Shown here piece by piece: positions 7,645-60,430 of a stretch of 64,000 nucleotides of DNA. Position numbers and translations under genes: made by a program. This DNA is from a candidate division WWE3 bacterium (GTDB lineage Bacteria > Patescibacteriota > WWE3 > JAUXAW01). The notes beneath the pieces are model-generated. The model saw only the letters and a list, made by a program, of their open reading frames with translations, was not told the origin of the DNA and searched no databases. Each line of letters opens with the position of its first letter. Position 1 is the first letter of the stretch. Where the stretch lies: contig JAUXAW010000001.1 of NCBI GenBank assembly GCA_030619715.1, positions 3,195 through 67,194 on the forward strand, in the 5' to 3' direction.

Positions 7645-8880
7645 TCAGGGCAGATAGGATTTAATCCAGTTGACCATTCTTCCCAAAAGCTCAAACACAC
7701 GTCCCCGAGCGGCGCCTAAACTGATGCGGCGTTCGGGCTGCAATCTCGAACCGTACAAAAGAAGGCCAATCGAGGCAGCAAAAGCCGGGCCATTAACCTC
7801 TTCAATCAGACCCGAAGCCCCGCGAGGTTGGCCAATCCGCACCGGCATCTTCAAAACCTGTTTGGCGGCCTCGGCAATCCCCGCCGTCTCCGCCGCTCCC
7901 CCGCAGATAATAATTCCCGCCGGTAGCTTCCCGGCAAAACCAGACTTCTTGACCTCCAATGCCACCAGCGAGAAAATCTCCTGCAGTCGTGCTTTGATAA
8001 TTTCGTTGAGCGTTTTTTTTGACAACGTTTTCGTCTCCAGTCCCAAATCAGAAATGTCAAGCTGATTCTCTTCTTTCTGGTTGCCTAGCGCCGCCACCTG
8101 CAGTTTTTCCTTGATCTTCCCCGCATCCTCCAAACTGGTGCGCAAGCCGATGGCCAAATCGTTGGTGAGATTCTGACCGCCGATCGGTAGAACCGTGGCG
8201 TAGGCCGGACTGCTGTCCTCAAAAACCAAAATGTCCGTCGTTCCCCCGCCGATATCGACCAAAACCGCGCCCAACTCCTTTTCCGTGTCCGTCAAAACCG
8301 CTTCGGCCGCCGCCACCCCCCCAAAAACCAGATCCTCCACGTCTACCCCGACCTGCTGGACGCACTTGACCAAGTTCCTCATCACCGTCGTGGCTCCGGA
8401 GATAATGTTCGTTTCTACCTCGAGGCGAATCCCACTCATCCCCACCGGGTCGCGCACTCCATCCTGCGAATCAACAATAAAACCGCGGGGGATGACGTGA
8501 ATGATCTCCCGCGACGAGGGAATCGAAATCGCCTGCGCCGCCTCGGTCACCCGAGCCACATCCGACGGCGAAATCTCACCTTCCTGATGGGCGACGGCGA
8601 CGACTCCGTGGGAGTTAAGCGAGGAGATATGCGTTCCGTCAACCAAACAGTAGGCCGAGGAAACGGCGTAACCAGCCATCCGCTCGGCGCTCTCGAGGGA
8701 CGCGGCAATCGCCTCGACCGCCTCGTCGATGTCAACCACCACTCCTTTCTTGATCCCTTTTGAAGGTACGGTTGAAACCCCAATGACCGAAATCTTCCCC
8801 TCGGGGGACAGAGTAGCAATGATCGTTGTTATCTTCGCGGAACCAATATCAAGTCCAGCAATTATCCTATCTTTGGCCAT
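7645..8880 (-). CDS. ftsA: Cell division protein FtsA.
   Basis: Actin-like ATPase motifs DIGSAKITT and DIGGGTTD. Confidence 0.95.
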   Translation of the reverse strand: MAKDRIIAGLDIGSAKITTIIATLSPEGKISVIGVSTVPSKGIKKGVVVDIDEAVEAIAASLESAERMAGYAVSSAYCLVDGTHISSLNSHGVVAVAHQEGEISPSDVARVTEAAQAISIPSSREIIHVIPRGFIVDSQDGVRDPVGMSGIRLEVETNIISGATTVMRNLVKCVQQVGVDVEDLVFGGVAAAEAVLTDTEKELGAVLVDIGGGTTDILVFEDSSPAYATVLPIGGQNLTNDLAIGLRTSLEDAGKIKEKLQVAALGNQKEENQLDISDLGLETKTLSKKTLNEIIKARLQEIFSLVALEVKKSGFAGKLPAGIIICGGAAETAGIAEAAKQVLKMPVRIGQPRGASGLIEEVNGPAFAASIGLLLYGSRLQPERRISLGAARGRVFELLGRMVNWIKSYLP

Positions 8881-22589: not shown

Positions 22590-23125
22590 AATTTCTCTTG
22601 AAACTGCGGGGACTTCAATTTCTTCTCAATGATTTCCTCAATATAACCTTTTATATCTCTGCGGTCAACCTTGTCTGACCAGAAACCAAGCAACCTCAAC
22701 AACTCGATCTCGAAATTCCGAGTAGTGGCACTTAGCTCAGAGCGTTTAGCACTTAGCTCGCCAAGAGTTCCGACTAAGAGGTTAAAAACCTGACGGTTGA
22801 CTTGTCTGTCCGGTGTCAGTTGGTCAACCAGTTCAACCAAATAAAACGCTGCCGCGGTTTTCCTAAGGTCTTTTTTAAGTTTTGAAAATGAATTGACCAC
22901 CTGCGCCTCGGTGACAATATCAAGATTTCGTCCCTCGGCCAGAAACAAAACGCAGTGATTAAAGAGCTCAACATTTCCCCCTTTCCTCGAAGTAATCTTC
23001 CGAACCCCCTTAGCAATCGTTTTAATTTTGCCGTAATGCTTCGTATAGATTGTCAGAATCCGGTCCGCCTCACCATAGTTCGTTCGCTTTAAGATTACCC
23101 CTTCAGTTTTATAACTGGACATCAA
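22586..23125 (-). CDS. recO: DNA repair protein RecO (short form).
   Basis: N-terminal OB-fold region [27 protein letters not shown]...AKGVRK. Confidence 0.65.
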
Positions 23126-24953
23126 TTTCGCGGTCGGACTTCAACTCAAACCCCTCAACCTCTTTACCATTAACCTTAATGCTATACATATGCCCGTCGG
23201 TCCCGGGTTGCTTTTGAACCAGCATTTGCAAGGCCTGGCCTTTCTGGACCTTAAAAGGCAACTCGTAGGTCACCGAAACGGAGTTGGAGTTCTCTGGATA
23301 GCAATAGGTGTAAGTTGTGAAAACCGTCTTGCCTAATTCTTCAGAAGAGGTCACCGCCGTCCAAGAGCTGCTGTCAAGAAGCTTGGAGCCTTGAGGAACA
23401 TAAATCCGCATCCAATCATAATAAGTCCCGTTGAGCCAACCGTCGTGGGGTTCGGGATTGTTTAAATTGATTGTCACCGTTTTTACCACCGTTCCATCTT
23501 TTGCCACCTTGATGTCCTGAGTTACCGTTTCCTGGATATAAAGATTGGCCTTGGCTCCGGCAAAGTTACAATCGTTGATGTGAAGATAATCACCGTCAAA
23601 ATCCCTGCTTCGCCCAGCAAAATTATACTTCTCCGCCAACTTTTGCGCCTCTGGCGCATGAAGATACAAAAGAACATGCTTCTCTCCCACCGCCTGCAGT
23701 GCCGTCTCGAAAAGTGGCTTCCAACGATCGCGGGAAGCGTGGAAGGCCTTGTCCATCATGGCGTCCATTAACTCTCCCAAAAGATCCTTGCGACCGACAA
23801 TATACCGCCCCAAAAGATTGACGTAAAGTTCTAACTGATAAACAATATTCTCCGAAGAGAAGGGCTCCTCATAGCCAGAAAGCTCGACTGGGCCCAAAAC
23901 CCCCAAAATATCTTTGACAAAATAGGTGTCAATACCAATAATTCCGTCAATCCGTGGAAAATTGGAAATTTTTCCTAAAAACCACTCAAACTTTTGACAA
24001 CTCTCATAGAAGTCCGGCGAGAGGTTAGAATCGCGAATAAAAGATTCTTCGACTTTAAGATATTGGGCTAAGACCGGCGTGGGAGGAGTTCTTTCGACAA
24101 TTTTTTCGTCCAACTTATACATATCATCGGAGGTCACCGAGATGATTTTCCCGCCCTCGACCGTTATCAGCGCGTAGGCGGTCAAAAAGCCCCCCGTCGG
24201 CCGCAGCTCTTTGTCATTTTGAAAAAGAACTAAATAGGTCTTTGGAGCCAAGTCACCCAAAACCCCCGGCAGAACGGCCAAAAGCTCTTTGATATCCGGC
24301 ATACTCTCCTCTACCGTATTCATCGTTTGTTTGGCCTCAATCAAAAGCGAACGAATTGGTTGACCTCTGAACGATTGAGGATAACGTTTGGGATCAACCG
24401 TCTCCAGCTCTTGGCGAATCGCCGCAAATTCTGTGGCAACTTCATCCAGTCGAGGGGCAATCTCGGGCATCACTTTGACCAGACCCTCAATCTTCTTTTC
24501 CGCATCAAGAAAGGCCTCGGTCTCCTCGGTCTTAAACCCCAAAACATCAGCGAACGGCTCAATCGCCTCGATCAGAACATTCCCCGCGGCAACACCGTGA
24601 TGAGCAGCTCGCAGAATATGCTCAATATCTTTGTAGTAGTTACCAAAGAAGGGGACGCTTTTCGTCCAAGAGAGGGGTTTAACATCTTCCTGAATATAAC
24701 CGATAGAGTCGTCTAGACCCGCAAGATCCCGCTCAATCTTGGTTAAATCTTGCAACAAAACCCCATCTTTCAAAAGCCGTGCTTGCCACCGAACTTTTTT
24801 AACATCGGCATAAACTTTCATCCCCGGCCGAATAATGAATAGAAAACAGAAAACAATGAACAATAAACAGAAAACAGAAAACAGGGCGACTGATCGTTTG
24901 TGTTTATAAAAGAAATTTGAGATTTGAGATTTGAGATTTGAGATTTTTTTCAC
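23109..24953 (-). CDS. DUF4012 domain membrane-anchored protein (paralog A).
   Basis: Signature LVLFQNDKELRPTGGFLTAYALITV. N-terminal TM segment. GTG start immediately followed by an A7 tract and the heptamer repeat. Confidence 0.8.
   Translation of the reverse strand: MKKISNLKSQISNFFYKHKRSVALFSVFCLLFIVFCFLFIIRPGMKVYADVKKVRWQARLLKDGVLLQDLTKIERDLAGLDDSIGYIQEDVKPLSWTKSVPFFGNYYKDIEHILRAAHHGVAAGNVLIEAIEPFADVLGFKTEETEAFLDAEKKIEGLVKVMPEIAPRLDEVATEFAAIRQELETVDPKRYPQSFRGQPIRSLLIEAKQTMNTVEESMPDIKELLAVLPGVLGDLAPKTYLVLFQNDKELRPTGGFLTAYALITVEGGKIISVTSDDMYKLDEKIVERTPPTPVLAQYLKVEESFIRDSNLSPDFYESCQKFEWFLGKISNFPRIDGIIGIDTYFVKDILGVLGPVELSGYEEPFSSENIVYQLELYVNLLGRYIVGRKDLLGELMDAMMDKAFHASRDRWKPLFETALQAVGEKHVLLYLHAPEAQKLAEKYNFAGRSRDFDGDYLHINDCNFAGAKANLYIQETVTQDIKVAKDGTVVKTVTINLNNPEPHDGWLNGTYYDWMRIYVPQGSKLLDSSSWTAVTSSEELGKTVFTTYTYCYPENSNSVSVTYELPFKVQKGQALQMLVQKQPGTDGHMYSIKVNGKEVEGFELKSDREIDVQL
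24916..24950. repeat. Heptanucleotide tandem repeat (TTTGAGA)x4 followed by a T7/A7 homopolymer at the extreme 5' end of the DUF4012 gene.
   Basis: tttgagatttgagatttgagatttgagattttttt. It encodes MKKISNLKSQISN. Confidence 0.9.
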
Positions 24954-44662: not shown

Positions 44663-45490
44663 TCATTTCCAGCCCCTCAAATCACGTCCGATTAATTTTT
44701 CCAAACTCTCAATATCTTTTCTAAAAACCTTACGCAACCTTTCCCGTTCAGACCTGCTCATCGGTGGGTAGGTTGCTTCCTTCCGATTGACCATTACATA
44801 GAGTCGTTGGATTCGATTGTAAAGATTAGCCCTTTTCAAAAAATCAATCAGTCCTCCGAGCCCCGCCTTCTCTAGAAATTTCCGCAGTTTAAATAGAACT
44901 ACCAAAAACCTAAACCGCACCTTCGCCGCCGGGTTAACTTTCTTGCCCAAAGATGGAGGAACAAAGCTAGAATCAACCCCTAAAAACTCGTACAAATCAC
45001 GGACGACGGTTCCGGGCCGGCTCTCAATATTATCAAATAAAATAATGTGTATCTTCTCCTGGCTGAATAAATCAAACCACCGAACGAGATACCTGTGATA
45101 AAAACCCTCCTCCAGATACTCGTCAATGCCCGCATCTTTATTAAAATTCAAAGCCCCCCACCAATAATGAGAGTAGGCCCGATCGACTGGGTTTCGCAAA
45201 CAGACAACCAACTTCGCTTCGGGGAAATGTTTCTTAATCCGCTTCGGGGCGTCTTCGTCACAAAGATAAGAGTTGCTGTACTCCCCTCTCACTCGTGGGC
45301 CGCCGCGCTCGGTAAACTGGCTTTCATACCAACTCATCCCTTTCTGGTAATACTTACTGAAAAATTCAATCTCTTTAATGTGAGGGACGCATATCTCCGG
45401 GTGCTCCCGCAAAACTTGGGCAATCCAGCTAGTCCCACTGCGAAAAGCACCGATGCCAATAAAGTCAACTTTGAAGGCTGTCATTTCCAA
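44663..45490 (-). CDS. Sulfotransferase-family protein.
   Basis: The 5'-PSB-like motif IGIGAFRSGTSWIAQVL (PAPS binding). 275 aa. Confidence 0.7.
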   Translation of the reverse strand: MEMTAFKVDFIGIGAFRSGTSWIAQVLREHPEICVPHIKEIEFFSKYYQKGMSWYESQFTERGGPRVRGEYSNSYLCDEDAPKRIKKHFPEAKLVVCLRNPVDRAYSHYWWGALNFNKDAGIDEYLEEGFYHRYLVRWFDLFSQEKIHIILFDNIESRPGTVVRDLYEFLGVDSSFVPPSLGKKVNPAAKVRFRFLVVLFKLRKFLEKAGLGGLIDFLKRANLYNRIQRLYVMVNRKEATYPPMSRSERERLRKVFRKDIESLEKLIGRDLRGWK

Positions 45491-47007
45491 GAACTCAAGT
45501 CCCGCTCAATTAATTTCTCAAGTTTTTCGACATCTTTTCTAAATAACCTCTTTAATCTCAACCGCGTCTCCTCCCGCATCGATGGATAATCAAAGGGTTT
45601 TTTATTCACTTTGCCATACAAATTGGACAAAGAAGGGTTGCTAATCAATTCCCTGACCAAGAAACCCAACCCCAAGGCCCGCAAAGCCTTCATCGGCAAA
45701 TTAACCAAATCGGCCAACAATTTGAATCTTACTTTCTTAGCTCGGTTCACCCTTCTCGTCAAAACTGAAGGCGCAAAGTTCTGACCCACCCCTAAAAAAC
45801 CGTAGACATCTTTCAGAACTTCCTGAGGGCGTTCTTTGATATCATCGAACAGAACAATTTTAATTTTCTCTCTGGGAAACACGTCGTAAAATCTTTTAAG
45901 CTGCTTATAATAGAAACCCCTCTTTATATACTGATCATCTTTTTCCAACTCTCCCTCAAAAGTTTCGGCCAAGTCGCCCGACTCAAAATTAGCTTTTTTC
46001 CACCAGTAAAACGAATAGACCGTATCCTCCGGTCTTCGCAGGCAGGCAATTAATTTAACGTTGGGAAAGTGGCGTTTGATTAGTCCGCAAGACTCGGGAA
46101 AAAACATATAGTGGGTGGTAAACTCGCCTCTAACCGCCCCTTTTGGAGCCTTCTCAAAGAAAGAACTGTACCGTTCCCAGCCTTTTGAATAATTGCTCCT
46201 CTTTTTCTCAAAATCAAAAAAACAGATCTCCTTCCGAGAAGGAAGATATATCTCGGGGTGCTCGCGTAAACACTCGGTCAACCAAGTGGTTCCGCTTCTC
46301 ACTGCTCCAATCCCTATAAAATCCAGGTTTAACAGCTCTCGCCGCCCAATTTTATGCCTTATTTCCTCGATAACAAACGGCATCACCTTTTGTGACAAAT
46401 GAATCGAATCTCGGAAGTATTCTATCTTCGTCAACCCGTCTCGATCTACCAACCTGTCAAAAATCGAAATAGCCTTCAGACTATTTTCTTCTATTAGTTC
46501 ACTAAGACGCCTGTTAAATTGGTGCACAACACGGTTTCTCTCGAGACAGGTGCCATACGTGGGATATTCCCCGCCCTTCACTATAAACCGAGTCGAGGGT
46601 GGAACATGCCAAACCAACACCCCGTAACCCATCTGACTGACCTCTTTAATAACCGAAAAATATCGATCAACACATTCATTCACAACATCCTCTGTGCCCC
46701 TGTTCTGTTTCTCCGCTTGCTTAAGCAAATGCGCCCGGCAGTCTATCTCACCAAAGCAGAATAAAACCCTACTGCCAATGGGTATAGTGTTCAAAACAGC
46801 AAACAGTTTCTCTCTACCTCTCGTCCTCGTTCCACTTCGGGAAAGGTTGTAGGCCAAAACAGGTCCTAGTCGATATGTCCTAAAGAGGGAAATTAGATCC
46901 TCGTGCGGCTCGGGCCACGAGGGTTGCACAAAAGGAACGCCCGAGAACAGATTGGCGTGGCTGTCTCCAATGCAATGAATAACATCCCTTCCGCTTCTCA
47001 TAATCAT
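45481..47007 (-). CDS. SGNH/GDSL hydrolase domain fused to a sulfotransferase domain.
   Basis: N-terminal block I CIGDSHANLF and block V DSIHLS (DxxH). C-terminal IGIGAVRSGTTWLTECL sulfotransferase PAPS motif. Confidence 0.65.
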   Translation of the reverse strand: MIMRSGRDVIHCIGDSHANLFSGVPFVQPSWPEPHEDLISLFRTYRLGPVLAYNLSRSGTRTRGREKLFAVLNTIPIGSRVLFCFGEIDCRAHLLKQAEKQNRGTEDVVNECVDRYFSVIKEVSQMGYGVLVWHVPPSTRFIVKGGEYPTYGTCLERNRVVHQFNRRLSELIEENSLKAISIFDRLVDRDGLTKIEYFRDSIHLSQKVMPFVIEEIRHKIGRRELLNLDFIGIGAVRSGTTWLTECLREHPEIYLPSRKEICFFDFEKKRSNYSKGWERYSSFFEKAPKGAVRGEFTTHYMFFPESCGLIKRHFPNVKLIACLRRPEDTVYSFYWWKKANFESGDLAETFEGELEKDDQYIKRGFYYKQLKRFYDVFPREKIKIVLFDDIKERPQEVLKDVYGFLGVGQNFAPSVLTRRVNRAKKVRFKLLADLVNLPMKALRALGLGFLVRELISNPSLSNLYGKVNKKPFDYPSMREETRLRLKRLFRKDVEKLEKLIERDLSSWK

Positions 47008-51598: not shown

Positions 51599-52267
51599 CT
51601 AACTATTATTTTTAATGATTGCCGCATTGTAGGACAAAAAGGGCCGCAAAAACGGCAAACCTTCCATAATTTTTTCGTAAATTTTAAATAGCTTAACGAA
51701 TCTTTTGGGATAGTTGTGGCACTCAAAGCACTTAAACTTCGCTTGAGGAAAGATGGCACGAACCAGTTTCTTAAAATAATTCTGTTTGAAGTGCTGGTGG
51801 CCACGCAGCAAAGTCATATAGGGATACAATAATGGGTTGTAGCGGTTCGCTTCGACAATGACAACAGAACCACCTGTTTTACAAACTCGTTTTAACCCTT
51901 CTAAGGCATGTCTGTGTTTCTCGTAACTCTGGTGTTCCTCATCAATATGATGCAAAACATCGTGGGCAAAGACAAAGTCAAACTGGTTTTCGCCAAAAGG
52001 GATCTCTGAGATGCCCGCCTTTTTGAATTCCAAACCCTTAATATTCTTTATTCTTTCGTGTTCAAAGATATCAATGCCGGAGGTTGCGAGGCCATACTCG
52101 TTGATGAAAATCTCCGCATCAAACCCCCCACCGCACCCGACATCCAAAATCTTCCCGCCGCCGGCAAAATCAAAACCAAGTTTATTAAAAATATCATCCC
52201 GATACTGATTTCCTGTGTTAATCATGGTCCAAGAGTATTCTAACATAGACAAGGGATTGACTCTCAT
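51599..52267 (-). CDS. Class I SAM-dependent methyltransferase.
   Basis: KILDVGCGGGFDAEIFINEYG (motif I). Confidence 0.8.
   Translation of the reverse strand: MRVNPLSMLEYSWTMINTGNQYRDDIFNKLGFDFAGGGKILDVGCGGGFDAEIFINEYGLATSGIDIFEHERIKNIKGLEFKKAGISEIPFGENQFDFVFAHDVLHHIDEEHQSYEKHRHALEGLKRVCKTGGSVVIVEANRYNPLLYPYMTLLRGHQHFKQNYFKKLVRAIFPQAKFKCFECHNYPKRFVKLFKIYEKIMEGLPFLRPFLSYNAAIIKNNS
52108..52226. repeat. Direct repeat copy 1 (~119 bp), the 5' end of the methyltransferase gene.
   Basis: About 85% identical to 53031-53148. The two copies flank the nucleotidyltransferase::APS-kinase gene. Confidence 0.8.
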
Positions 52268-52292: not shown

Positions 52293-53030
52293 ATGAAGTA
52301 TTCACTGTTTATCGGCCGGTGGCAACCTTTTCACAAGGGCCACAAAATGCTGATCAATGAAGTTCTCAAGGAGAAAAAGCCTGCTCTCATCGCTATCAGA
52401 GATACTGAAATATCGGAGGAAAATCCGTACACTATCGAGGAACGTAGGAAGATGATCAAAGAAGAGTACGGAGATAGCGTAAAGATAATCACCATCCCGG
52501 ATATAGGGGAGATCTGTTACGGTCGAAGGGTTGGATACAAGATAAGAAGAATTCGCTTGGATAACCAGACAGAGGAGATATCAGGAGCCAAGATAAGAGA
52601 TTCACAAAAAAGGGTTATTTGGCTTACAGGCAATATGGGTGCAGGGAAAACATCTCTTGCTTATCTTCTTAAAGACAGGTTGAATGCGGTTGTTTTGGAT
52701 GGCGATGAGATGCGAGCATCAATCTCGCTGGGAGCAGGTTTTAGCAAAAAGGACAGGAACGAACATAATTTAAGAGTAGCACGGCTGGCAAAAATTCTTC
52801 ACGCCCAGGGGCACAATGTTGTTGTGGCGGTCATCGCACCATTTAGGGAAACGAGAAAAAAGATTAATGATATCTGTGATCCCTATTGGATTTATGTGTG
52901 TGGCGGAGCAACGGGGAAAGATAAGCCCTACGAACCGCCGGAGAATCCCGATGTGGTTATTGATCCTTTGTCTGAAAGTTTAAGCGAAAGCCTGGAGAAA
53001 ATCATTGAGGAGGTGGGGAAAATTACATAG
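52293..53030 (+). CDS. Compact NMNAT/cytidylyltransferase-like nucleotidyltransferase domain fused to adenylylsulfate (APS) kinase. Candidate minimal PAPS synthase.
   Basis: N-domain has FIGRWQPFHKGH (H-x-G-H) and EISGAKIRDS (ISxTxIR-like). C-domain has VIWLTGNMGAGKTSLAYLL (P-loop), LDGDEMR, FSKKDRNEHNLRVARLAKIL and VVAVIAPFRETR, the APS kinase (CysC) motifs. Confidence 0.7.
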   Translation: MKYSLFIGRWQPFHKGHKMLINEVLKEKKPALIAIRDTEISEENPYTIEERRKMIKEEYGDSVKIITIPDIGEICYGRRVGYKIRRIRLDNQTEEISGAKIRDSQKRVIWLTGNMGAGKTSLAYLLKDRLNAVVLDGDEMRASISLGAGFSKKDRNEHNLRVARLAKILHAQGHNVVVAVIAPFRETRKKINDICDPYWIYVCGGATGKDKPYEPPENPDVVIDPLSESLSESLEKIIEEVGKIT

Positions 53031-53190
53031 AAATCTCCGCATCAAACCCCCCGCCGCAACCCACATCCAAAATTTTCCCACCTCTTTGGAAGTCAAAGCC
53101 AAGTTTATTAAAAATATCGTCCCGATACTGGTTTCCCGTGCTAATCATACTCGAAAGCATTTTAGCATAAAAACCCTTCAAAAAAACTTG
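53031..53190 (-). pseudogene. Truncated duplicate of the 5' end of the SAM methyltransferase gene (direct repeat copy 2).
   Basis: Encodes MISTGNQYRDDIFNKLGFDFQRGGKILDVGCGGGFDAEIS, against MINTGNQYRDDIFNKLGFDFAGGGKILDVGCGGGFDAEIF in the intact gene. It then terminates. Confidence 0.7.
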
Positions 53191-53261
53191 AAGTCTCATA
53201 GTAGATATGGTAGTATGTTTGCGCCGGAACCTTAACAACTCAGTTAGACAGGGGGAGACAG

Positions 53262-53996
53262 ATGAGAATAGTCCGCTCAACGGGGTGTTTTAAGAGCCTC
53301 CTGGCGGCCTACCTCGAAATTCCATACTTCCCGTGGAAGAATATGGAAGTGGAATTGTGGCCGCTACGAGGCACAGGCATCCAAAGAATAATCGACGGTG
53401 GGTGCCGGATCGTTAGCATCCACATGCCCTTCGGTGAGTCACTGTGGCGAGGAGGACTTCCTCACATATGGCGCCTCATACGAAGGGATTTCCAGAGGAG
53501 GTCTGTAAAATCCGCCATGCACCTGGCTCTCACAGCGGTCGTCTTAGCTACGGATTTCTGGCATCGCATCTGGAAACCGTACTGGCCGGAACTCGACATC
53601 GAAACCATCGAGCAGGACTTAGCGATGTTGCGACCGAACGCGCTCCTTTTTCACGGTGATCAGCTGTGGGCCGTTTCAGAGGCGACGGAGAGAATCCTGG
53701 CGCTTGCGAGGAGTATGGGCACTGGGATTCACGTCGAGCATTGCTCCATCGGGCCCTCTGAAGAACCTCTCACTATTCACGACACGATCAACATGTGTCG
53801 AAGGGATGGTTGGAAATTGGCCCCAGACCTACACCACAGCCCTGAATTCGAGAGATATTTGCTTGTTCTAAAAGAAGAGGGGCTACTTGGAGAAATCCAG
53901 TGTCGTGGTTTTAAAGAAGCGCGCAGGCTGATGACAGCTTACCCGGGCCTAGAAGGGGCCCCACTGGTTATCGAGCCAAAAGACCTGACCACCTAG
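53262..53996 (+). CDS. Hypothetical protein, GC-rich (about 58%).
   Basis: RBS GGGGGAG before the ATG. 244 aa, no recognisable motif. Compositionally distinct from its neighbours. Confidence 0.5.
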   Translation: MRIVRSTGCFKSLLAAYLEIPYFPWKNMEVELWPLRGTGIQRIIDGGCRIVSIHMPFGESLWRGGLPHIWRLIRRDFQRRSVKSAMHLALTAVVLATDFWHRIWKPYWPELDIETIEQDLAMLRPNALLFHGDQLWAVSEATERILALARSMGTGIHVEHCSIGPSEEPLTIHDTINMCRRDGWKLAPDLHHSPEFERYLLVLKEEGLLGEIQCRGFKEARRLMTAYPGLEGAPLVIEPKDLTT

Positions 53997-54007
53997 GATG
54001 GGGGCAC

Positions 54008-54766
54008 TCAAAATCGCAGTTCCGGCTTGAGTGCCCTCAAATTCATCATATTATTCTTAACCTCAACCACAATTTCTTCCAAAATCTCCTCCCAAGAATC
54101 TTCAAGGAGGCGGGCACAATCTTCAAAAACCCTTTTTGCTTTCTCCACATTCACGTTGTCCCCCTGCGGGAGACCTGCGGCCATATTCGCCCAAATTTCG
54201 ACCAGACCCTGAATCGAAAGAAACCTTTCGGGAGTATAGGATCTCAAGAGAAACAAAATATCCTGCGAAACATCCGCAATCTCCTTGTCGAAGCACTCGG
54301 CCAAAAGAGACGCTGCTTCGGAAACATCAATCTGGGAAATCTTTTTTGCTAAATCTTCAACAAAATTTCGCCGGTGCCGAAGAAGTTGGACATCAACTCC
54401 CCACCAAAGAAAGTTGTGAAATCGAGCCCGCGAAGCTATCTCCAAGGAAATCTCCGAGGCCTCAGCGATTCGTTTCCCATACTCTTCTCTCTTACTTTCA
54501 AACCGCTCCGCAATGCTCCGACTAAACCCATCTGCCCCAAACTCGGCGCTGTGGCAAAGCATACCCAAAGCCAAATCTCGCCTCCCCGGAGAGTATTTAT
54601 CCAAGAAATCCAGAAGTTTCTTTCCGCCCTCATGGATCTCCTCAAACTCAAACACAGAGCCGGGAACGAAGGGAACAATATCCGGATAATAGGAGCCCAA
54701 AACCAAATCCCCCGTTAACCTTCCGGCAACCCTTTTAGCGACGTAGGGATGACCGATGACATTCAT
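54008..54766 (-). CDS. Hypothetical protein. The internal Met at 54766 (MNVIGHPYVAKR...) is the likely start.
   Basis: About 250 aa. No recognisable domain. Confidence 0.45.
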   Translation of the reverse strand: MNVIGHPYVAKRVAGRLTGDLVLGSYYPDIVPFVPGSVFEFEEIHEGGKKLLDFLDKYSPGRRDLALGMLCHSAEFGADGFSRSIAERFESKREEYGKRIAEASEISLEIASRARFHNFLWWGVDVQLLRHRRNFVEDLAKKISQIDVSEAASLLAECFDKEIADVSQDILFLLRSYTPERFLSIQGLVEIWANMAAGLPQGDNVNVEKAKRVFEDCARLLEDSWEEILEEIVVEVKNNMMNLRALKPELRF

Positions 54767-54810
54767 TGGAAGTATTTTAACACAGACAGAAGAGGCGATT
54801 CTCGTGTAAA

Positions 54811-56376
54811 ATGGTAACAATGAAAGAGTGGTTCAGACAAAATTGGAAGGCCCTCGCTTTTCTCGCCTTTCTGGTTTTTGTGGCCTACATCAACTCTCTA
54901 AATAACGCCTTTGTGGCTGACGATATTCCCGCGATCCTTAACAAAGCAGATATTACCGAAATAAGCTACGTCTTCGCCACCCCTCTTGTCTTGGCAAGGA
55001 CTTTCCTGAACTTCATCATCGCTAACATCTTCGGCCGCTCACCACCCGCTTTCCGCGCCGTCAACATCCTTTTTCATCTCGGCAATGTTTGGCTGCTTTA
55101 TTTCCTCCTTCACATCTTAGCCAACCGCAAAACCGCTCTCTTCGCCGCCGCCATCCTGGCCACCCATCCCCTTATGACCGAGTCAGTTACCTGGGTTGCC
55201 GGTGGTCTATACGCACAGTACAGCTTCTTCCTTCTTCTGGCGTTAGCGCTATATGTTCTAAACGATGTGAACGAAAACAAAAAAGTTTATTGGTCCGCAC
55301 TCGGGAGCTTCGCCGTCGGTCTTCTCACCTCCGAAAAGGCAATGGCTTTCCCTCTTATCCTTTTGGCGTTGGAATTCGCCTACCGGGGTTTGCGAAAAAA
55401 TTGGAGGCGCTTGATTCCCTTCTTTGCTCTTGGGGGGATCTGGGCACTAATATTTATCGGAAAAATTGGCGAGAGAGCCGCTAACCTCCAAACGATGTAT
55501 TATCAAGCCCCCCAAGCAACGGAGTCCCTAGCTCAGATCCCAATCGCCATTACCTCCTACTTAAAATTAGTCTTCTGGCCGAAGGGGCTTACTCTCTACC
55601 ACTCGGAGATGAGCTTCTCTGCCGTTGAGTTCTACCTGCGGCTGGCCGCCCTAATTATTTTCTTGGGACTGATGGCTTACGCATACAGGAAAAGCAAACC
55701 GACATTTTTTTGGTTATCTTTCTTCATCATCGCTCTTTCACCAACACTGGTCCCGTTTGGTCTTTCTTGGATTGTCGCCGAGCGCTACGTCTACCTAGGC
55801 ACAATTGGAATTCTTGTGGTCGTAGCGATGGGAATCCAAAAGATTGGAGAAAAACTCGGCAACCCCAATATTTCTTACGCAATTATGGTTCCAGTCGTTT
55901 TAGCGCTGACGGCAAGAACGATTGCTAGAAACACCGACTGGAAAAACCAAGACACGCTTTGGCTAGCGGCGGCGAAGACATCGCCTTCAAGCCCGCAGAA
56001 CCATAATAATCTCGGAGATCTGTACGGCCGACGGGGGGATTTGGAAAGGTCGGCAGAGGAGTTTAAAAAAGCGATCGAGCTCAAACCGGGCTACGCCGAC
56101 GCTCACCATAACCTGGCCATTGTTTATCAGCGAATGGGAAGAGTTGACGAAGCGATTGTAAACTATCAAAAGGCAGCCGAAATTAACCCCCTGCTCTGGC
56201 AACCCTGCCAAAATTTGGCCGCTATTTACTTTGAGCAAGAAGAGTTCGAGCTAGCAAAAGAATATATGGAAAAAGCGGTTGAAGCTAACCCCGAAAACGC
56301 CAACCTCCGCCGCAGCCTAGAAATCATTTATCAAGAACTCGTCCAAAAAGAGAATTCAAAACGCGATCAAGAGTAG
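54811..56376 (+). CDS. TMTC/DUF1736-like GT-C membrane glycosyltransferase with C-terminal TPR repeats.
   Basis: N-terminal polytopic region with YINSLNNAFVADDIPAI (N-x-F-x-x-DD motif). Three or four C-terminal TPRs (NLGDLYGRRGDLERSAEEFKKAIELKP...). Confidence 0.6.
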   Translation: MVTMKEWFRQNWKALAFLAFLVFVAYINSLNNAFVADDIPAILNKADITEISYVFATPLVLARTFLNFIIANIFGRSPPAFRAVNILFHLGNVWLLYFLLHILANRKTALFAAAILATHPLMTESVTWVAGGLYAQYSFFLLLALALYVLNDVNENKKVYWSALGSFAVGLLTSEKAMAFPLILLALEFAYRGLRKNWRRLIPFFALGGIWALIFIGKIGERAANLQTMYYQAPQATESLAQIPIAITSYLKLVFWPKGLTLYHSEMSFSAVEFYLRLAALIIFLGLMAYAYRKSKPTFFWLSFFIIALSPTLVPFGLSWIVAERYVYLGTIGILVVVAMGIQKIGEKLGNPNISYAIMVPVVLALTARTIARNTDWKNQDTLWLAAAKTSPSSPQNHNNLGDLYGRRGDLERSAEEFKKAIELKPGYADAHHNLAIVYQRMGRVDEAIVNYQKAAEINPLLWQPCQNLAAIYFEQEEFELAKEYMEKAVEANPENANLRRSLEIIYQELVQKENSKRDQE

Positions 56377-58525: not shown

Positions 58526-60430
58526 ATGTCAAAACCAACGCTTGAATCCCGCTATCAACTTGTATACTATTGGGGTATGGTCCGGGCGAAGACTTCACGC
58601 TTAAAGAGGCTTTCAAAGCGCAAGAAGGTCCTGCTTACTGCTCTGGTGGTGTTGGTTTTGCTGGCCATAGGGGGCTACTTCTTGGTAGGCAGACCGGCGC
58701 AGGCCCTGTACCAGCAGGCCAAGTTAGCCAAACCCCATCTGGCCAATCTTAAAACCGGCTTGATAACACAAAATCTACCTCAAATTCGAGCGGAAGTGGC
58801 TGAACTCGATCAAATCCGAGCGAAGTCGGCGGAAATTTACCAACAGTTTGGCTGGCTCGAAGTAATTCCGGGGGTCGGTAACTATTATCGGGACGGCCAG
58901 CACGTTTTCAGGGCGGGAGAGGCGGGAATCGAAGCGGCGCAGATTATGGTCACGGCCCTAGAACCTTTTGAAGATTTTGAAGATATTGAAAAATTAACCC
59001 AGCTGGTTGTCATCTCTCCCCAAATTATCCCTCAACTAGAGGAGGCCTTACAGAAAATCGCGGTTGTCCGCGCGGAAATCACCCAAATCAACCCCCAGCG
59101 CTACCCTACCGAGATTAAGGGGTTTAAAATCCGCTCTAACTTAGAAAGCGCAATCGCCGCGCTCGACAGCGCCGAGGGGCTCCTCACCGACGCGGGACCC
59201 CTTCTGCGCGCTCTGCCTCAGGCGCTAGGAGCGGAAGAGCCCCAAAATTATTTAATTCTCTTCCAAAACGATAAAGAGCTCCGGCCCGGTGGCGGTTTCA
59301 TCACCGCCTACGCCCTGGCCCAATTCAACCAAGGGGTATTTTCTGTTTTGCAGTCAGACGATATTTATAATCTGGACCAGAACCGCGTGCGCCTGCCGGC
59401 CCCAGATCCGATTACGCGCTTTTTGAAAGTGCCGGGGTTTTACATGCGCGACACCAACTTTTCGCCCGACTTCAAAAAGAGCATGGAGGATTTTCTCATT
59501 TACTACGACGCCTGCGGTGCGCCGCCGGTAGCCGGAATTATCGCCATTGATACCCAATTCGTGGAAAGCTTTTTGGAACTCACGGGACCCATCAGCGTCC
59601 CCGAATACCAGCAAGATTTTTCCGGCTGGCCTAACCTGCCTCAATCCTGCCGCACGGGAGGCACGGACTTCACCACCGAAAATGTGGTTTGCCGACTGGA
59701 GCTCTACGCCGAGAAAATTCTCCATGGAAGCAGTCAACGCAAGGCCTTGATTGGTGATTTAATGGGGCATCTGGTCGATTGGCTGCTGACCGCGCCCCCG
59801 AACATCTGGCCGCCGATACTCAAAAATGTGGTCGAACAGGCGCAGACCAAACATCTATTAGTTTATTTTGAAAATGAAACTCTACAGAAATTGGCCGAAG
59901 ACTACAATTTGGCCGGACGGCTGCGAGAGGATTTCAAAACCGATTTTCTGCACGTTAACGACGCTAATTTAGCCGGCGCCAAATCCGATCTCTACATGGA
60001 TCGCAAATACCGCCTGGAGGTCAAAACAACCGGCGACGGGCAGGTGATCAACAAATTGACCCTCACTTACGCTAACACCGGTCTTTATGATGGCTGGCTC
60101 AACACAACCAATCGCGATTATCTAAGGATCTATGTCCCTCAGGGCTCTATGCTCATCGATTCCGACGGCGGTTCGTACGAGACAACAACTTTCGAGGACT
60201 TGGGCAAAACCGTTTTTGATAATTTTCTGCAGACCCCTCCACTGCAGACAATTCAGTTTATGGTCGAGTACCAATTGCCGCCGGAGGTGGAGAGAAAATC
60301 CTCAAAAGAATATGAGTTGCTAATCCAAAAACAGCCAGGGAAGGGGGCCGAAGAATGGACGGTGGTCGTAAACGGAGAAGAGCAAACGATAAATCTGGAT
60401 AGAGACGAAAAACTAAGATTTGAACTCTAA
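58526..60430 (+). CDS. DUF4012 domain protein (paralog B).
   Basis: YLILFQNDKELRPGGGFITAYALAQF. Collinear similarity to 23109-24953 (IDTYFV/IDTQFV, LYLHAPEAQKLAEKYNFAGR/LLVYFENETLQKLAEDYNLAGR). Confidence 0.8.
   Translation: MSKPTLESRYQLVYYWGMVRAKTSRLKRLSKRKKVLLTALVVLVLLAIGGYFLVGRPAQALYQQAKLAKPHLANLKTGLITQNLPQIRAEVAELDQIRAKSAEIYQQFGWLEVIPGVGNYYRDGQHVFRAGEAGIEAAQIMVTALEPFEDFEDIEKLTQLVVISPQIIPQLEEALQKIAVVRAEITQINPQRYPTEIKGFKIRSNLESAIAALDSAEGLLTDAGPLLRALPQALGAEEPQNYLILFQNDKELRPGGGFITAYALAQFNQGVFSVLQSDDIYNLDQNRVRLPAPDPITRFLKVPGFYMRDTNFSPDFKKSMEDFLIYYDACGAPPVAGIIAIDTQFVESFLELTGPISVPEYQQDFSGWPNLPQSCRTGGTDFTTENVVCRLELYAEKILHGSSQRKALIGDLMGHLVDWLLTAPPNIWPPILKNVVEQAQTKHLLVYFENETLQKLAEDYNLAGRLREDFKTDFLHVNDANLAGAKSDLYMDRKYRLEVKTTGDGQVINKLTLTYANTGLYDGWLNTTNRDYLRIYVPQGSMLIDSDGGSYETTTFEDLGKTVFDNFLQTPPLQTIQFMVEYQLPPEVERKSSKEYELLIQKQPGKGAEEWTVVVNGEEQTINLDRDEKLRFEL

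What the first reader, a model, noticed from the sequence alone, without database searches (positions are those of the whole stretch)
52293..53030. Minimal NMNAT-like nucleotidyltransferase fused to APS kinase: candidate non-canonical PAPS synthase feeding two sulfotransferases
The C-terminal ~140 aa carry all APS-kinase (CysC) motifs. The N-terminal ~110 aa form a compact (H/T)xGH nucleotidyltransferase, FIGRWQPFHKGH plus ISGAKIR, closest in motif pattern to archaeal NMN adenylyltransferase rather than to any known ATP sulfurylase (Sat/CysDN). The locus encodes two PAPS-dependent sulfotransferase domains, yet no sat/cysD/cysN is visible. A nucleotidyltransferase that adenylates sulfate would make this fusion a self-contained PAPS synthase of a type not described to my knowledge. 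The gene is also the only plus-strand gene in this part of the locus.
Basis: partly seen in the sequence, partly recalled or inferred. Interest (0 to 1): 0.8.

Follow-up and report, generated by a model that had tools for sequence, protein, structure and literature searches.

The report
Minimal nucleotidyltransferase–APS kinase: candidate PAPS synthase
A 245-residue protein in a candidate-phyla-radiation bacterium joins a stripped-down, 100-residue ATP-using transferase to the kinase that makes the universal sulfate donor PAPS, and comparative genomics suggests the small domain is a previously unrecognised kind of sulfate-activating enzyme, which has not been tested biochemically.

Summary
The ORF at 52293-53030 (+) is real. 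Residues 1-105 form a minimal HxGH nucleotidyltransferase (NT) and residues 106-245 an APS-kinase (APSK) family domain.

The roughly 22-residue catalytic lid is deleted, while the P-loop, LDGD and both phosphosulfate-binding arginines are kept.

The NT family has more than 7,700 clusters and is tied to APSK:
- It is fused to APSK in both orders (20 NT-K and 38 K-NT among 150 representatives).
- When split, the two genes overlap or abut (4 of 5 contexts).
- The same pairing appears on 20 of 26 viral contigs.

Sulfotransferases are the most recurrent neighbours, present in at least 8 of 21 genomes. No canonical Sat or CysDN lies near any NT+APSK locus (0/41), against 26/43 ordinary cysC loci (p = 1e-10).

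Best reading: a non-canonical, self-contained PAPS synthase (confidence about 0.6). Biochemistry and whole-genome absence of Sat are untested, and no prior description was found.

The parts
52293..53030 (+). NT-APSK fusion gene (245 aa plus stop)
   Evidence: ORF and translation. Two Pfam domains. 883 homologues, the 120 best listed all having the same architecture at 61-77% identity to the window protein (P0001 is the window protein itself), in Patescibacteria.
52293..52607 (+). Minimal HxGH nucleotidyltransferase (NT) domain, aa 1-105; proposed sulfate adenylyltransferase
52317..52343 (+). R9-W-Q-P-F-H14-K-G-H17: the GRxQPxHxGH ATP-binding motif
   Evidence: R9 and H17 are invariant, and G8, P12, H14 and G16 are >=90% conserved across 54 diverse NT domains. 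hhalign places it on Sat QTRNPIHRAH.
52518..52535 (+). Y76-G-R-R-V-G81: the family-specific invariant GR.VG loop at the acceptor side
   Evidence: G77, R78 and G81 are invariant and V80 is >=90% conserved. The loop replaces 16 + 9 residues of NMNAT. It is aligned to Sat VGRDHAGVG by hhalign, which is weak at probability 12%. The GRD loop lines the phosphosulfate site in Sat (PMC3779200).
52578..52598 (+). I96-S-G-A-K-I-R102: the ISxTxxR nucleotide-phosphate motif
   Evidence: R102 is invariant and S97 is >=90% conserved. It aligns to NMNAT YSGTEIR and Sat LSGTKVR.
52608..53027 (+). APS-kinase family domain without a lid, aa 106-245
   Evidence: Pfam APS_kinase E 2.2e-25. PDB APS kinases match at E about 1e-18 in two stretches with about 35 chain residues skipped. 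Alignment to E. coli CysC.
52629..52652 (+). P-loop G113-NMGAGK-T120
   Evidence: Sequence. The P-loop Lys is kept in 58/58 NT-associated kinases.
52695..52757 (+). LDGDEMR (aa 135-141) through GFSKKDR (aa 149-155): the APS ribose, adenine and phosphosulfate-binding core
   Evidence: R141 corresponds to Mtb CysC Arg483, F150 to Phe492 and R155 to Arg497 (roles from PMC4373884). Conservation is 57/58, 49 F plus 5 Y of 58, and 55/58.
52899..52925 (+). C203-GGATGKD-K211: junction where about 22 lid residues are missing
   Evidence: The lid is absent in 17, complete in 36 and partial in 5 of 58 NT-associated kinases.
44663..45490 (-). Sulfotransferase (275 aa), presumed PAPS consumer
   Evidence: Sulfotransfer_3 E 4.6e-17 and Sulfotransfer_1 E 2.7e-14. 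Motifs FRSGTS and RNPVDRAYS.
45481..47007 (-). Sulfotransferase with an N-terminal SGNH/GDSL-like domain (508 aa), presumed PAPS consumer
   Evidence: Sulfotransfer_1 E 1.8e-14 at aa 231-408, plus a weak Lipase_GDSL_2 match. Motifs VRSGTT and RRPEDTVYS.
52108..52232 (.). Left copy of the 125-nt direct repeat bracketing the gene; lies inside the 5' part of methyltransferase gene 51599-52267 (-)
53031..53155 (.). Right copy of the direct repeat (84% identity), starting 1 nt after the stop codon; a remnant of a second methyltransferase 5' end (ORF 53023-53280 -)

Best explanation
The gene most likely encodes a compact, non-canonical bifunctional PAPS synthase.

Step 1 (inferred). The N-terminal 105-residue domain is a minimal HIGH-motif nucleotidyltransferase derived from an NMNAT-like ancestor. 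It binds ATP through R9, H14, H17, R51, S97 and R102. It transfers AMP to a small anion, sulfate, held near the invariant G77-R78-x-V80-G81 loop, giving APS plus PPi.

Step 2 (family membership shown, activity inferred). The C-terminal APS-kinase domain phosphorylates the 3'-OH of APS to give PAPS. It uses the conserved P-loop, LDGD, and Arg141/Arg155 phosphosulfate clamp.

Tight physical coupling would pull the very unfavourable first reaction. The coupling takes the form of fusion here, and of overlapping genes or the reverse fusion order elsewhere. It may also compensate for the missing kinase lid in this subfamily (inferred).

Step 3 (inferred from context). PAPS is consumed by the two sulfotransferases in the same glycan-biosynthesis cluster, which would sulfate a cell-surface glycan of this Patescibacteria-type organism.
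For: 1. Domain identity.

2. NT-APSK coupling.
- Among 150 representatives (50% clusters) of the NT domain, 20 are NT-K fusions, 38 are K-NT fusions and 58 are standalone.
- In 3 of 4 independent standalone-NT contexts looked up, an overlapping APS_kinase gene follows directly; the fourth, the Nanoarchaeota NT, has no kinase nearby.
- L058 has the K stop and NT start as TAAATG.
- 20 of 26 IMG/VR viral loci carry both domains, in every arrangement.
- PHROG 10255 is a K-NT profile.

3. The partner kinases are real APS kinases. 36 of 58 have the full canonical lid. The phosphosulfate arginines are conserved in 57/58 and 55/58, and the P-loop Lys in 58/58 (residue roles from PMC4373884).

4. Link to sulfation.
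- A sulfotransferase lies within 10 kb in at least 8 of 21 independent fused loci, and is directly adjacent in L012, L018, L024 and L025.
- In an unbiased Pfam census of 133 neighbouring ORFs, Sulfotransfer_3 ranks first and Sulfotransfer_1 ties for second.
- The split pair in L027 sits beside a gene with only faint Sulfotransfer_3/4 hits, fused to a methyltransferase.
- Viral loci L039 and L041 carry sulfotransferase-like genes, detected by local jackhmmer only.

5. Displacement signature. 0/41 NT+K loci of at least 5 kb have Sat or CysD/N nearby, against 26/43 ordinary APS-kinase loci (Fisher p = 1.4e-10). At 10 kb or more it is 0/37 against 20/27. The detector was validated 7/7 by Pfam. A Sat HMM hits 41/79 control loci and none of the NT-linked loci or the window.

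7. No curated family or paper covers it.
Against: - There is no biochemical evidence of any kind.
- Whole-genome absence of sat/cysDN could not be tested. A review states that some groundwater CPR genomes carry annotated sat, cysC and cysN (PMC9698310).
- The locus-level contrast with controls is confounded by taxonomy, because the controls are mostly non-CPR organisms with cys operons.
- The NT is much closer to NMNAT and PPAT than to Sat. The Sat profile alignment is weak (probability 12%). In Sat the sulfate ligands are Gln and Arg of the RNP loop plus a backbone NH of the GRD loop, so the invariant Arg78 has no proven counterpart.
- The window's kinase lacks the lid, which a structural study calls essential for activity (PMC4373884), so the kinase step itself may be altered.
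- One archaeal standalone NT (P0352) has no APS kinase within reach, and six viral loci show K without a detectable NT.
- 13 of 21 fused loci show no sulfotransferase within 10 kb, and some lie among housekeeping genes.
- Sulfurylase-like domains fused to APS kinase can be catalytically dead regulators, as in Entamoeba.
Confidence: 0.6

Rival explanations
1. The kinase domain is the only sulfate-pathway enzyme. The NT domain is a nucleotide-binding regulatory or scaffolding module that tunes or stabilises APS kinase, for instance by standing in for the lid. APS would come from a canonical Sat or CysDN encoded elsewhere in the genome.
For: Precedent exists: E. histolytica APS kinase carries a sulfurylase-like domain that lost substrate binding and modulates the kinase. 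Some CPR genomes are reported to carry sat/cysN. The window's kinase lacks its lid and might need a partner domain.
Against: All catalytic nucleotidyltransferase residues (R9, H14, H17, R51, S97, R102) stay invariant or nearly so across thousands of diverged sequences, unlike the degenerate Entamoeba domain. The NT is equally attached to kinases with a complete lid (36/58). No Sat or CysDN lies near any of 41 loci, although they sit beside 60% of ordinary cysC genes.
Confidence: 0.15
2. The module makes a different 3'-phosphorylated nucleotide donor. The NT would couple an NTP to a non-sulfate acceptor, and the CysC-like kinase would phosphorylate the 3'-OH. From my own knowledge, this is analogous to Campylobacter Cj1416/Cj1415, which make 3'-phospho-CDP-amidate for O-methyl-phosphoramidate capsule decoration.
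For: Methyltransferase genes or domains recur with the NT. The window gene is embedded in a duplicated methyltransferase gene. MT-NT fusions P0148 and P0175 exist. L027 has methyltransferase neighbours. CysC homologues can act on non-APS substrates (own knowledge, not tested here).
Against: No glutamine-kinase (PEP-utilising) or amidohydrolase gene is present in the window. Both arginines that clamp the phosphosulfate, and the adenine-stacking Phe, are conserved. The recurrent neighbours are sulfotransferase-fold enzymes with canonical PAPS-binding motifs.
Confidence: 0.1
3. The NT domain is simply a very small NMNAT for NAD salvage in a reduced genome, fused to APS kinase for unrelated or regulatory reasons. 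The kinase might then act on NAD.
For: The best sequence and fold matches are archaeal NMNAT and NadM. The Nanoarchaeota standalone NT lies among housekeeping genes with no kinase. NUDIX genes recur nearby, reminiscent of NadM, which is an NMNAT-Nudix fusion.
Against: Scores lie far below the NMNAT family cut-offs (37-44 bits against 127-181). The 16-residue NMNAT segment missing here is, to my recollection, the nicotinamide-binding helix; I could not confirm this in the searchable literature. Systematic pairing with bona fide APS kinase in both orders, and with sulfotransferases, has no NAD rationale.
Confidence: 0.05
4. The pair is a non-canonical PPAT/dephospho-CoA-kinase couple carrying out the last two steps of CoA synthesis. 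The chemistry is the same: adenylyl transfer followed by 3'-OH phosphorylation.
Against: The kinase belongs to the APS-kinase family (E 2e-25), not to CoaE (E 0.0055, P-loop only). The phosphosulfate arginines are conserved, and most partner kinases have a closed canonical lid. Sulfotransferase linkage.
Confidence: 0.04

Closest known systems
Bifunctional PAPS synthase / Sat-CysC fusions (human PAPSS1/2; Aquifex aeolicus SAT/APS kinase, PDB 2gks; NCBIfam NF004040)
   Different: The nucleotidyltransferase here has about 105 residues instead of about 390. It has no PUA-like domain and no PF01747 match (a Sat HMM finds nothing at E<=10). It lacks the QxRNP loop and has a shortened GR.VG loop in place of GRDHAG. 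The window's kinase lacks the lid.
Archaeal NMN adenylyltransferase (MJ0541, PDB 1f9a; M. thermautotrophicus NMNAT 1ej2) and NadM
   Different: Two internal segments are missing (16 and 9 residues of MJ0541 between residues 72 and 109). In the window protein the C-terminal helical subdomain is also missing. Scores are far below the family cut-offs. The genomic partners are APS kinase and sulfotransferases, not NAD genes.
APS kinase CysC (E. coli CysC; M. tuberculosis CysC 4bzp; Aeropyrum 2yvu)
   Same: P-loop, LDGD, the Arg/Phe/Arg APS-binding core, the (I/V)(A/S)P strand and the PYExP C-terminal motif.
   Different: About 22 residues of the lid are deleted, including the ATP-stacking Arg, the gamma-phosphate Lys and the second adenine-stacking Phe. 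The score is below the TIGR00455 cut-off.
CysDN (heterodimeric, GTP-coupled ATP sulfurylase)
   Same: Proposed to catalyse the same reaction. CysN is also found fused to CysC.
   Different: There is no homology: CysD is a PP-loop ATP pyrophosphatase and CysN a GTPase. Neither is present in the window or in any NT-linked locus.
E. histolytica APS kinase with a sulfurylase-like domain (bioRxiv 10.64898/2026.04.02.716029) and fungal ATP sulfurylase with a dead APSK-like domain
   Same: They show that sulfurylase-type and kinase-type domains are repeatedly fused, and that one partner can become regulatory.
   Different: There the extra domain is a degenerate canonical Sat fold. Here it is a different, NMNAT-like mini-domain whose catalytic motifs are strictly conserved.

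Membership tests
APS kinase (CysC; PF01583 / TIGR00455) | Walker A P-loop GxxGxGK(S/T) | tested here: met
   GNMGAGKT at aa 113-120. Lys kept in 58/58 NT-linked kinases.
APS kinase (CysC; PF01583 / TIGR00455) | LDGD motif plus the two phosphosulfate-binding arginines and the first adenine-stacking Phe (Mtb CysC Arg483, Arg497, Phe492) | tested here: met
   L135-D-G-D138, R141, F150 and R155. Residue roles from PMC4373884.
APS kinase (CysC; PF01583 / TIGR00455) | Mobile lid of about 30 residues with the ATP-stacking Arg, the catalytic Lys and the second Phe (Mtb 552-581) | tested here: not met
   About 22 residues are absent. The PDB alignments skip chain residues about 109-145. See also the alignment to E. 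coli CysC and the lid count.
APS kinase (CysC; PF01583 / TIGR00455) | Score above curated family thresholds | tested here: inconclusive
   The Pfam gathering score is passed (89.9 against 21.1). NCBIfam TIGR00455 is failed (93.7 against 138.7).
APS kinase (CysC; PF01583 / TIGR00455) | ATP-dependent 3'-phosphorylation of APS | not testable with these tools
   Needs an enzyme assay.
Archaeal NMN adenylyltransferase (TIGR01527 / NF002243) | GRxQPxHxGH and ISGTxxR ATP-binding motifs on a HIGH-nucleotidyltransferase fold | tested here: met
Archaeal NMN adenylyltransferase (TIGR01527 / NF002243) | Central segment between beta3 and beta5 (MJ0541 residues 72-109), which to my recollection carries the nicotinamide-binding helix | tested here: not met
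   16 + 9 residues are deleted. The functional role of the segment could not be confirmed in the searchable literature.
Archaeal NMN adenylyltransferase (TIGR01527 / NF002243) | Score above the curated cut-off over the full length | tested here: not met
   37-44 bits against cut-offs of 127-181. The matches cover only aa 4-61.
ATP sulfurylase Sat (PF01747 + PUA_2) | Sequence membership in PF01747, with the N-terminal PUA-like domain | tested here: not met
   No Pfam hit. A Sat HMM built from 20 verified sequences gives no hit at E<=10. None appears among 68 PDB profile hits.
ATP sulfurylase Sat (PF01747 + PUA_2) | HxxH motif, QxRNP (RNP) loop and GRD loop lining the phosphosulfate site (PMC3779200) | tested here: inconclusive
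   HKGH is present. The RNP loop is replaced by RWQP. GR.VG aligns to GRDHAGVG, but only in a weak profile alignment with probability 12%.
ATP sulfurylase Sat (PF01747 + PUA_2) | ATP + sulfate to APS + PPi activity | not testable with these tools
   Needs an enzyme assay or genetic complementation.
Bifunctional PAPS synthase (functional class) | A nucleotidyltransferase and an APS kinase on one chain or in one operon, functionally linked to PAPS-dependent sulfotransferases, with no separate sulfurylase required | tested here: inconclusive
   Architecture and coupling are met. Sulfotransferase linkage is met. No Sat or CysDN occurs within 10 kb in 0/41 loci. Genome-wide absence was not testable, and some CPR genomes are reported to carry sat.
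CysDN sulfate-activating complex | CysD (PP-loop) plus CysN (GTPase) subunits | tested here: not met
   tblastn and phmmer with E. coli CysD/N are negative in the window and in all NT-linked loci.
Cj1415/Cj1416-type phosphoramidate donor pathway (definition from my own knowledge) | Cluster also encodes a glutamine kinase and a gamma-glutamyl-CDP-amidate hydrolase; the nucleotidyltransferase is of the MobA/IspD type | tested here: not met
   No such Pfam domains appear among the 50 window ORFs scanned, which include every ORF of at least 100 aa from 11.6 kb to the window end and so the whole glycan cluster. The NT is HIGH-type.
PPAT (CoaD) + dephospho-CoA kinase (CoaE) | Kinase belongs to the CoaE family; the transferase scores as CoaD | tested here: not met

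The most novel reading that the evidence does not exclude
The roughly 100-residue NT domain is a third, independently evolved class of ATP sulfurylase, after Sat and CysDN, carved out of an NMNAT-like scaffold. Together with APS kinase it forms the smallest known PAPS synthase (about 245 aa). The two are fused in either order or translationally coupled. In the lid-less subfamily the NT domain substitutes for the kinase lid and channels APS. The module supplies PAPS for glycan sulfation across Patescibacteria, in some other lineages, and in their viruses, which carry it as an auxiliary metabolic gene.
Probability: 0.5. Interest if true: 0.85.

Novelty: new variant of a known kind. Interest (0 to 1): 0.74.

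Why it matters
Sulfate activation is thought to rest on two enzyme types, homo-oligomeric Sat and GTP-coupled CysDN. A third type, a 100-residue enzyme present in thousands of protein clusters, would change how sulfur-assimilation and sulfation capacity are scored in metagenomes. These genes are currently labelled "adenylyl-sulfate kinase", "cytidyltransferase-like" or "hypothetical".

It would also imply that many ultra-small, host-dependent Patescibacteria, and viruses that carry the module, decorate surface glycans with sulfate, which bears on episymbiont-host recognition. It would give biotechnology a very compact PAPS-regeneration enzyme.

The lid-less kinase raises a separate question: how does an APS kinase work without an element reported to be essential? 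The hypothesis can be tested directly with one recombinant protein or one E. coli complementation experiment.

Tried and rejected
- A genome scan with the diverse NT alignment A2 failed because no stretch was conserved enough. I used the closer alignment A1 instead, which finds only the Patescibacteria NT-K subfamily.
- The afdb50 fold library was unavailable.
- Single-sequence phmmer, jackhmmer and a PAPS-motif regex were too insensitive for sulfotransferases. I replaced them with precomputed Pfam calls and a Pfam census.
- The metagenome scan meant to fetch lid-bearing K-NT fusions keyed on the generic P-loop and returned ordinary cysC loci. I re-used these as a control set. As a result, the genomic contexts of the roughly 300-aa lid-bearing K-NT fusions remain unexamined, apart from L058.
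- Literature searches for any prior description of the fusion or of a minimal sulfurylase found nothing relevant. A search to confirm the nicotinamide-binding role of the deleted NMNAT helix also failed, so that point rests on my memory.
- PADLOC gave no meaningful match, so a defence-system reading was rejected.
- The NT-DHHA1 fusion (P0157) and the sulfotransferase-like-NT fusion (P0161) are below Pfam thresholds. I treat them as hints only.
- The full-length AF2 model has low inter-domain confidence (pTM 0.57), so I drew no conclusion about domain packing.
- I could not test whether the genomes carrying the module lack sat/cysDN elsewhere.
Full report
**1. The observation**

Pfam finds a Cytidylyltransferase-like (HxGH) match at residues 5-58 and an APS_kinase match at residues 107-195.

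NCBIfam and a PDB sequence search agree. The C-terminal part matches APS kinases at E about 1e-26 and 1e-18. The N-terminal part matches archaeal NMN adenylyltransferase and NadM at 1e-9 to 1e-11, far below their family cut-offs.

Two sulfotransferase-domain genes lie 5-8 kb away on the opposite strand (44663-45490 and 45481-47007). Both carry canonical 5'-PSB and 3'-PB PAPS-binding motifs.

I scanned 50 window ORFs with Pfam, comprising all 45 ORFs of at least 100 aa from 11.6 kb to the window end and 5 of the 10 below 11.6 kb. I ran tblastn with real E. coli CysD and CysN. Finally I ran an ATP-sulfurylase HMM, built from verified sequences, over every six-frame ORF of at least 50 aa. No sat, cysD or cysN is present in the 64 kb.

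The window looks like a Patescibacteria (CPR) genome. It has FtsZ/FtsA, a dcw cluster at 11.6-20.6 kb, and then about 30 kb of minus-strand glycan-biosynthesis genes. The closest homologues are in Woesebacteria, WWE3, Parcubacteria-group and similar MAGs.

**2. One correction to the observation**

The kinase does not carry all CysC motifs. Alignment with E. coli CysC and with PDB APS kinases shows that about 22 residues of the lid are missing. In M. tuberculosis CysC the lid supplies three things: Arg559, which stacks on the ATP adenine; Lys562, which contacts the gamma-phosphate and the APS 2'-OH; and Phe576, the second adenine-stacking residue. The authors conclude that lid closure is essential for activity (PMC4373884).

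The core is intact: P-loop (aa 113-120), LDGD (135-138), Arg141, Phe150 and Arg155. The last three correspond to Arg483, Phe492 and Arg497, the residues that clamp the phosphosulfate and adenine of APS.

**3. The N-domain as a family**

An exhaustive phmmer search with residues 1-105 against 1.84 billion cluster representatives gave 1,688 hits, 413 of them below 1e-10.

Across 54 diverse members the invariant residues are R9, H17, G77, R78, G81 and R102. G8, P12, H14, G16, P45, R51, V80, S97 and T99 are at least 90% conserved. This defines the motifs GRxQPxHxGH, NPxxxxR, YGRxVG and ISxTxIR.

Foldseek agrees. Fold alone therefore does not decide the substrate.

The profile-to-PDB alignment and a multiple alignment show what sets the family apart from NMNAT. 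Two segments of MJ0541 are deleted, 16 residues (FNSIWVSYVESLTPPF) and 9 residues (NPLVRVLFE), and only the short invariant GR.VG loop remains between beta3 and the ISGT motif.

To my recollection the 16-residue segment is the helix that binds the nicotinamide ring. I could not confirm this in the searchable literature.

The residues shared with NMNAT are the ATP-binding ones. The loss is on the acceptor side, which fits a much smaller acceptor.

**4. Coupling to APS kinase**

Among the best 150 representatives (50% identity clusters), the architectures are as follows:

| Architecture | Count |
|---|---|
| NT-kinase fusion | 20 |
| Kinase-NT fusion | 38 |
| Standalone NT | 58 |
| Other partner | 34 |

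One of the "other" partners is a divergent APS kinase.

Three of the four independent standalone NT genes I looked up are followed by an overlapping APS_kinase gene. The three are L026/L028 (8001-8369 then 8366-8812), L027 (8001-8330 then 8308-8643), and a JGI contig (7558-7881 then 7820-8146); the fourth is the Nanoarchaeota case listed under exceptions below. In L058 the order is reversed and the kinase stop abuts the NT start (TAAATG).

Twenty of 26 IMG/VR viral contigs carry both domains, in all four arrangements. PHROG 10255, annotated "kinase", is a K-NT profile.

The partners are genuine APS kinases. Thirty-six of 58 have the complete canonical lid (C..RD.KGLY.KA..GEI..FTGI..PYE.P). The phosphosulfate arginines are conserved in 57/58 and 55/58.

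The lid deletion seen in the window occurs in 17 of 58, in both fusion orders. NT domains attached to lid-bearing and lid-less kinases share the same invariant residues, so they most likely catalyse the same reaction.

Exceptions exist. A Nanoarchaeota standalone NT (P0352) has no kinase within reach. Six viral loci show a kinase without a detectable NT.

**5. Link to sulfation, and absence of canonical sulfurylases**

Across 21 independent fused loci, a sulfotransferase-family gene lies within 10 kb in at least eight: the window, L003, L005, L012, L017, L018, L024 and L025. It is directly adjacent in L012, L018, L024 and L025. These genes come from three Pfam sulfotransferase families.

I ran an unbiased census of 133 neighbouring ORFs from 13 genomes. 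Sulfotransfer_3 was the single most recurrent family (4 members), with Sulfotransfer_1 (3) tied for second alongside Epimerase, NUDIX, HTH_11 and AAA_16.

The metagenome scan returned ordinary APS-kinase loci, which I used as a control. The same detector was applied to both sets: the Sat motifs Q.RNP.H..H or GRDHAG, plus phmmer with E. coli CysD/N.

| Locus set | At least 5 kb | At least 10 kb |
|---|---|---|
| Ordinary APS-kinase loci with Sat/CysDN nearby | 26 of 43 | 20 of 27 |
| NT+kinase loci with Sat/CysDN nearby | 0 of 41 | 0 of 37 |
| Fisher p | 1.4e-10 | 4.5e-11 |

Seven of seven flagged ORFs were confirmed as PF01747 plus PUA_2. A Sat HMM hit 41 of 79 control loci and nothing in NT-linked loci at E<=10.

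This is the signature of non-orthologous displacement, but it is confounded by taxonomy. It also says nothing about genes elsewhere in the genomes. A review notes annotated sat, cysC and cysN in some groundwater CPR genomes (PMC9698310).

**6. Relation to ATP sulfurylase**

A profile-profile alignment of the NT family against 20 verified Sat sequences is weak (probability 12%, pairwise E 0.0024) but co-linear over 104 columns. It superposes:
- RWQ-PFHKGH on QTRNPIHRAH
- YGR---VG on VGRDHAGVG
- ISGTKIR on LSGTKVR

In Sat, the RNP and GRD loops line the phosphosulfate site. The sulfate oxygens bind Gln199, Arg201 and the backbone NH of Ala299 in the GRD loop (PMC3779200).

The family-specific loop thus sits at the topological position of Sat's GRD loop. 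The sulfate ligands themselves are not demonstrably conserved, so this is suggestive only.

**7. Interpretation**

The NT would adenylate sulfate, the fused kinase would convert APS to PAPS, and the neighbouring sulfotransferases would use it to sulfate a surface glycan.

- Shown: domain identities, conservation, obligate NT-kinase coupling, sulfotransferase linkage, and local absence of Sat/CysDN.
- Inferred: the acceptor is sulfate, the lid-less kinase is active, and the NT compensates for the lid.

I considered four rivals:
- A regulatory, non-catalytic NT. The precedent is the Entamoeba APS kinase. The strict conservation of the catalytic residues argues against it.
- A different 3'-phospho-nucleotide donor, as in the Campylobacter phosphoramidate pathway. 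Methyltransferases recur with the NT. But the other pathway genes are absent and the phosphosulfate clamp is conserved.
- A minimal NMNAT.
- A PPAT/DPCK-like pair.

**8. Novelty**

Public sources call these proteins hypothetical, uncharacterized, "cytidyltransferase-like" or "adenylyl-sulfate kinase". No NCBIfam, Pfam, PHROG or PADLOC model describes the module functionally. Ten literature searches found no description.

The pathway itself (PAPS synthesis) is known. The enzyme class proposed for the first step, and the lid-less kinase, would be new. I therefore rate it a new variant of a known kind and of high interest, conditional on a simple biochemical or complementation test.

Noticed in passing
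window 52108-52232 and 53031-53155; ORF 53023-53280 (-): A 125-nt direct repeat (84% identity) brackets the NT-APSK gene exactly. The right copy starts 1 nt after the stop codon. The repeat is the 5' coding part of the Methyltransf_11 gene at 51599-52267 (-). The right copy belongs to an 85-aa remnant of a second methyltransferase N-terminus. This suggests the + strand gene arrived or was fixed by a duplication or insertion event.
   Followed up: partly
window 45481-47007 (-): The larger sulfotransferase carries an N-terminal domain of about 210 aa with a weak SGNH/GDSL-hydrolase match (E 7.8e-4, below threshold). It may be a bifunctional esterase/sulfotransferase acting on an O-acylated glycan.
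   Followed up: no
window 53262-53996 (+) and 54008-54820 (-): Two ORFs of 244 and 270 aa directly downstream of the fusion gene have no Pfam match. The first overlaps the methyltransferase remnant and has an odd Trp/Arg/His-rich composition, so its coding status is doubtful.
   Followed up: no
window 23109-24953 (-) and 58526-60430 (+): Two paralogous DUF4012 proteins of about 620 aa flank the roughly 30-kb glycosyltransferase cluster, which holds at least 17 GT genes between 25.5 and 57.1 kb.
   Followed up: no
L031-L056 (IMG/VR viral contigs): The NT+APSK module occurs on 20 of 26 retrieved viral contigs, some 60-90 kb long, in all fusion and split arrangements. Sulfotransferase-like genes occur on L039 and L041. 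PHROG 10255 ('kinase') is a K-NT profile. An independent paper reports viral cysC and CHST9 AMGs in a community whose viruses were most often linked to Patescibacteria hosts. I did not verify that the contigs are truly viral.
   Followed up: partly
L029 8001-8396 and L030 1578-1973 (Nanoarchaeota MAG): A 131-aa standalone NT, 51% identical to the window N-domain with the same deletions plus an NMNAT-like C-terminal helix, sits next to DNA polymerase D and TyrRS. No APS kinase lies within reach. It is an exception to the NT-kinase pairing.
   Followed up: partly
L027 8308-8643; JGI 3300078620 contig 7820-8146: In two split pairs the called APS_kinase gene product has only 108-111 aa, which would reach only to about the (I/V)SP strand. 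These may be gene-calling or frameshift artefacts, or even more reduced kinases.
   Followed up: no
L008 2924-3382; L025 7748-8173; L026 7069-7590: NUDIX hydrolase genes recur within a few kb of NT-APSK modules (3 of 133 census ORFs, plus L025 and L026/L028). This is reminiscent of NadM, which is an NMNAT-Nudix fusion. It could be chance, an ancestral linkage, or a PAP/APS-related hydrolase.
   Followed up: no
P0148, P0175, P0157 (representative proteins): The NT domain is also fused to SAM-methyltransferase domains (Methyltransf_11; Methyltransf_24/TylF). In one 432-aa protein it is fused to a sub-threshold DHHA1 domain, from the DHH family, which to my knowledge includes NrnA-type PAP phosphatases.
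   Followed up: partly
L005 8424-9972 and L020 104-1658: In two genomes the fusion gene directly follows an ABC-2 type (Wzm/Wzt-like) polysaccharide exporter pair. This fits a role in decorating an exported glycan.
   Followed up: no
window 4817-5734 (-): A deoxynucleoside kinase is fused to an N-terminal HTH_3 (Cro/C1-type) DNA-binding domain, next to a thymidine kinase (1027-1632) and a DUF1599 'nucleotide modification associated' protein.
   Followed up: no
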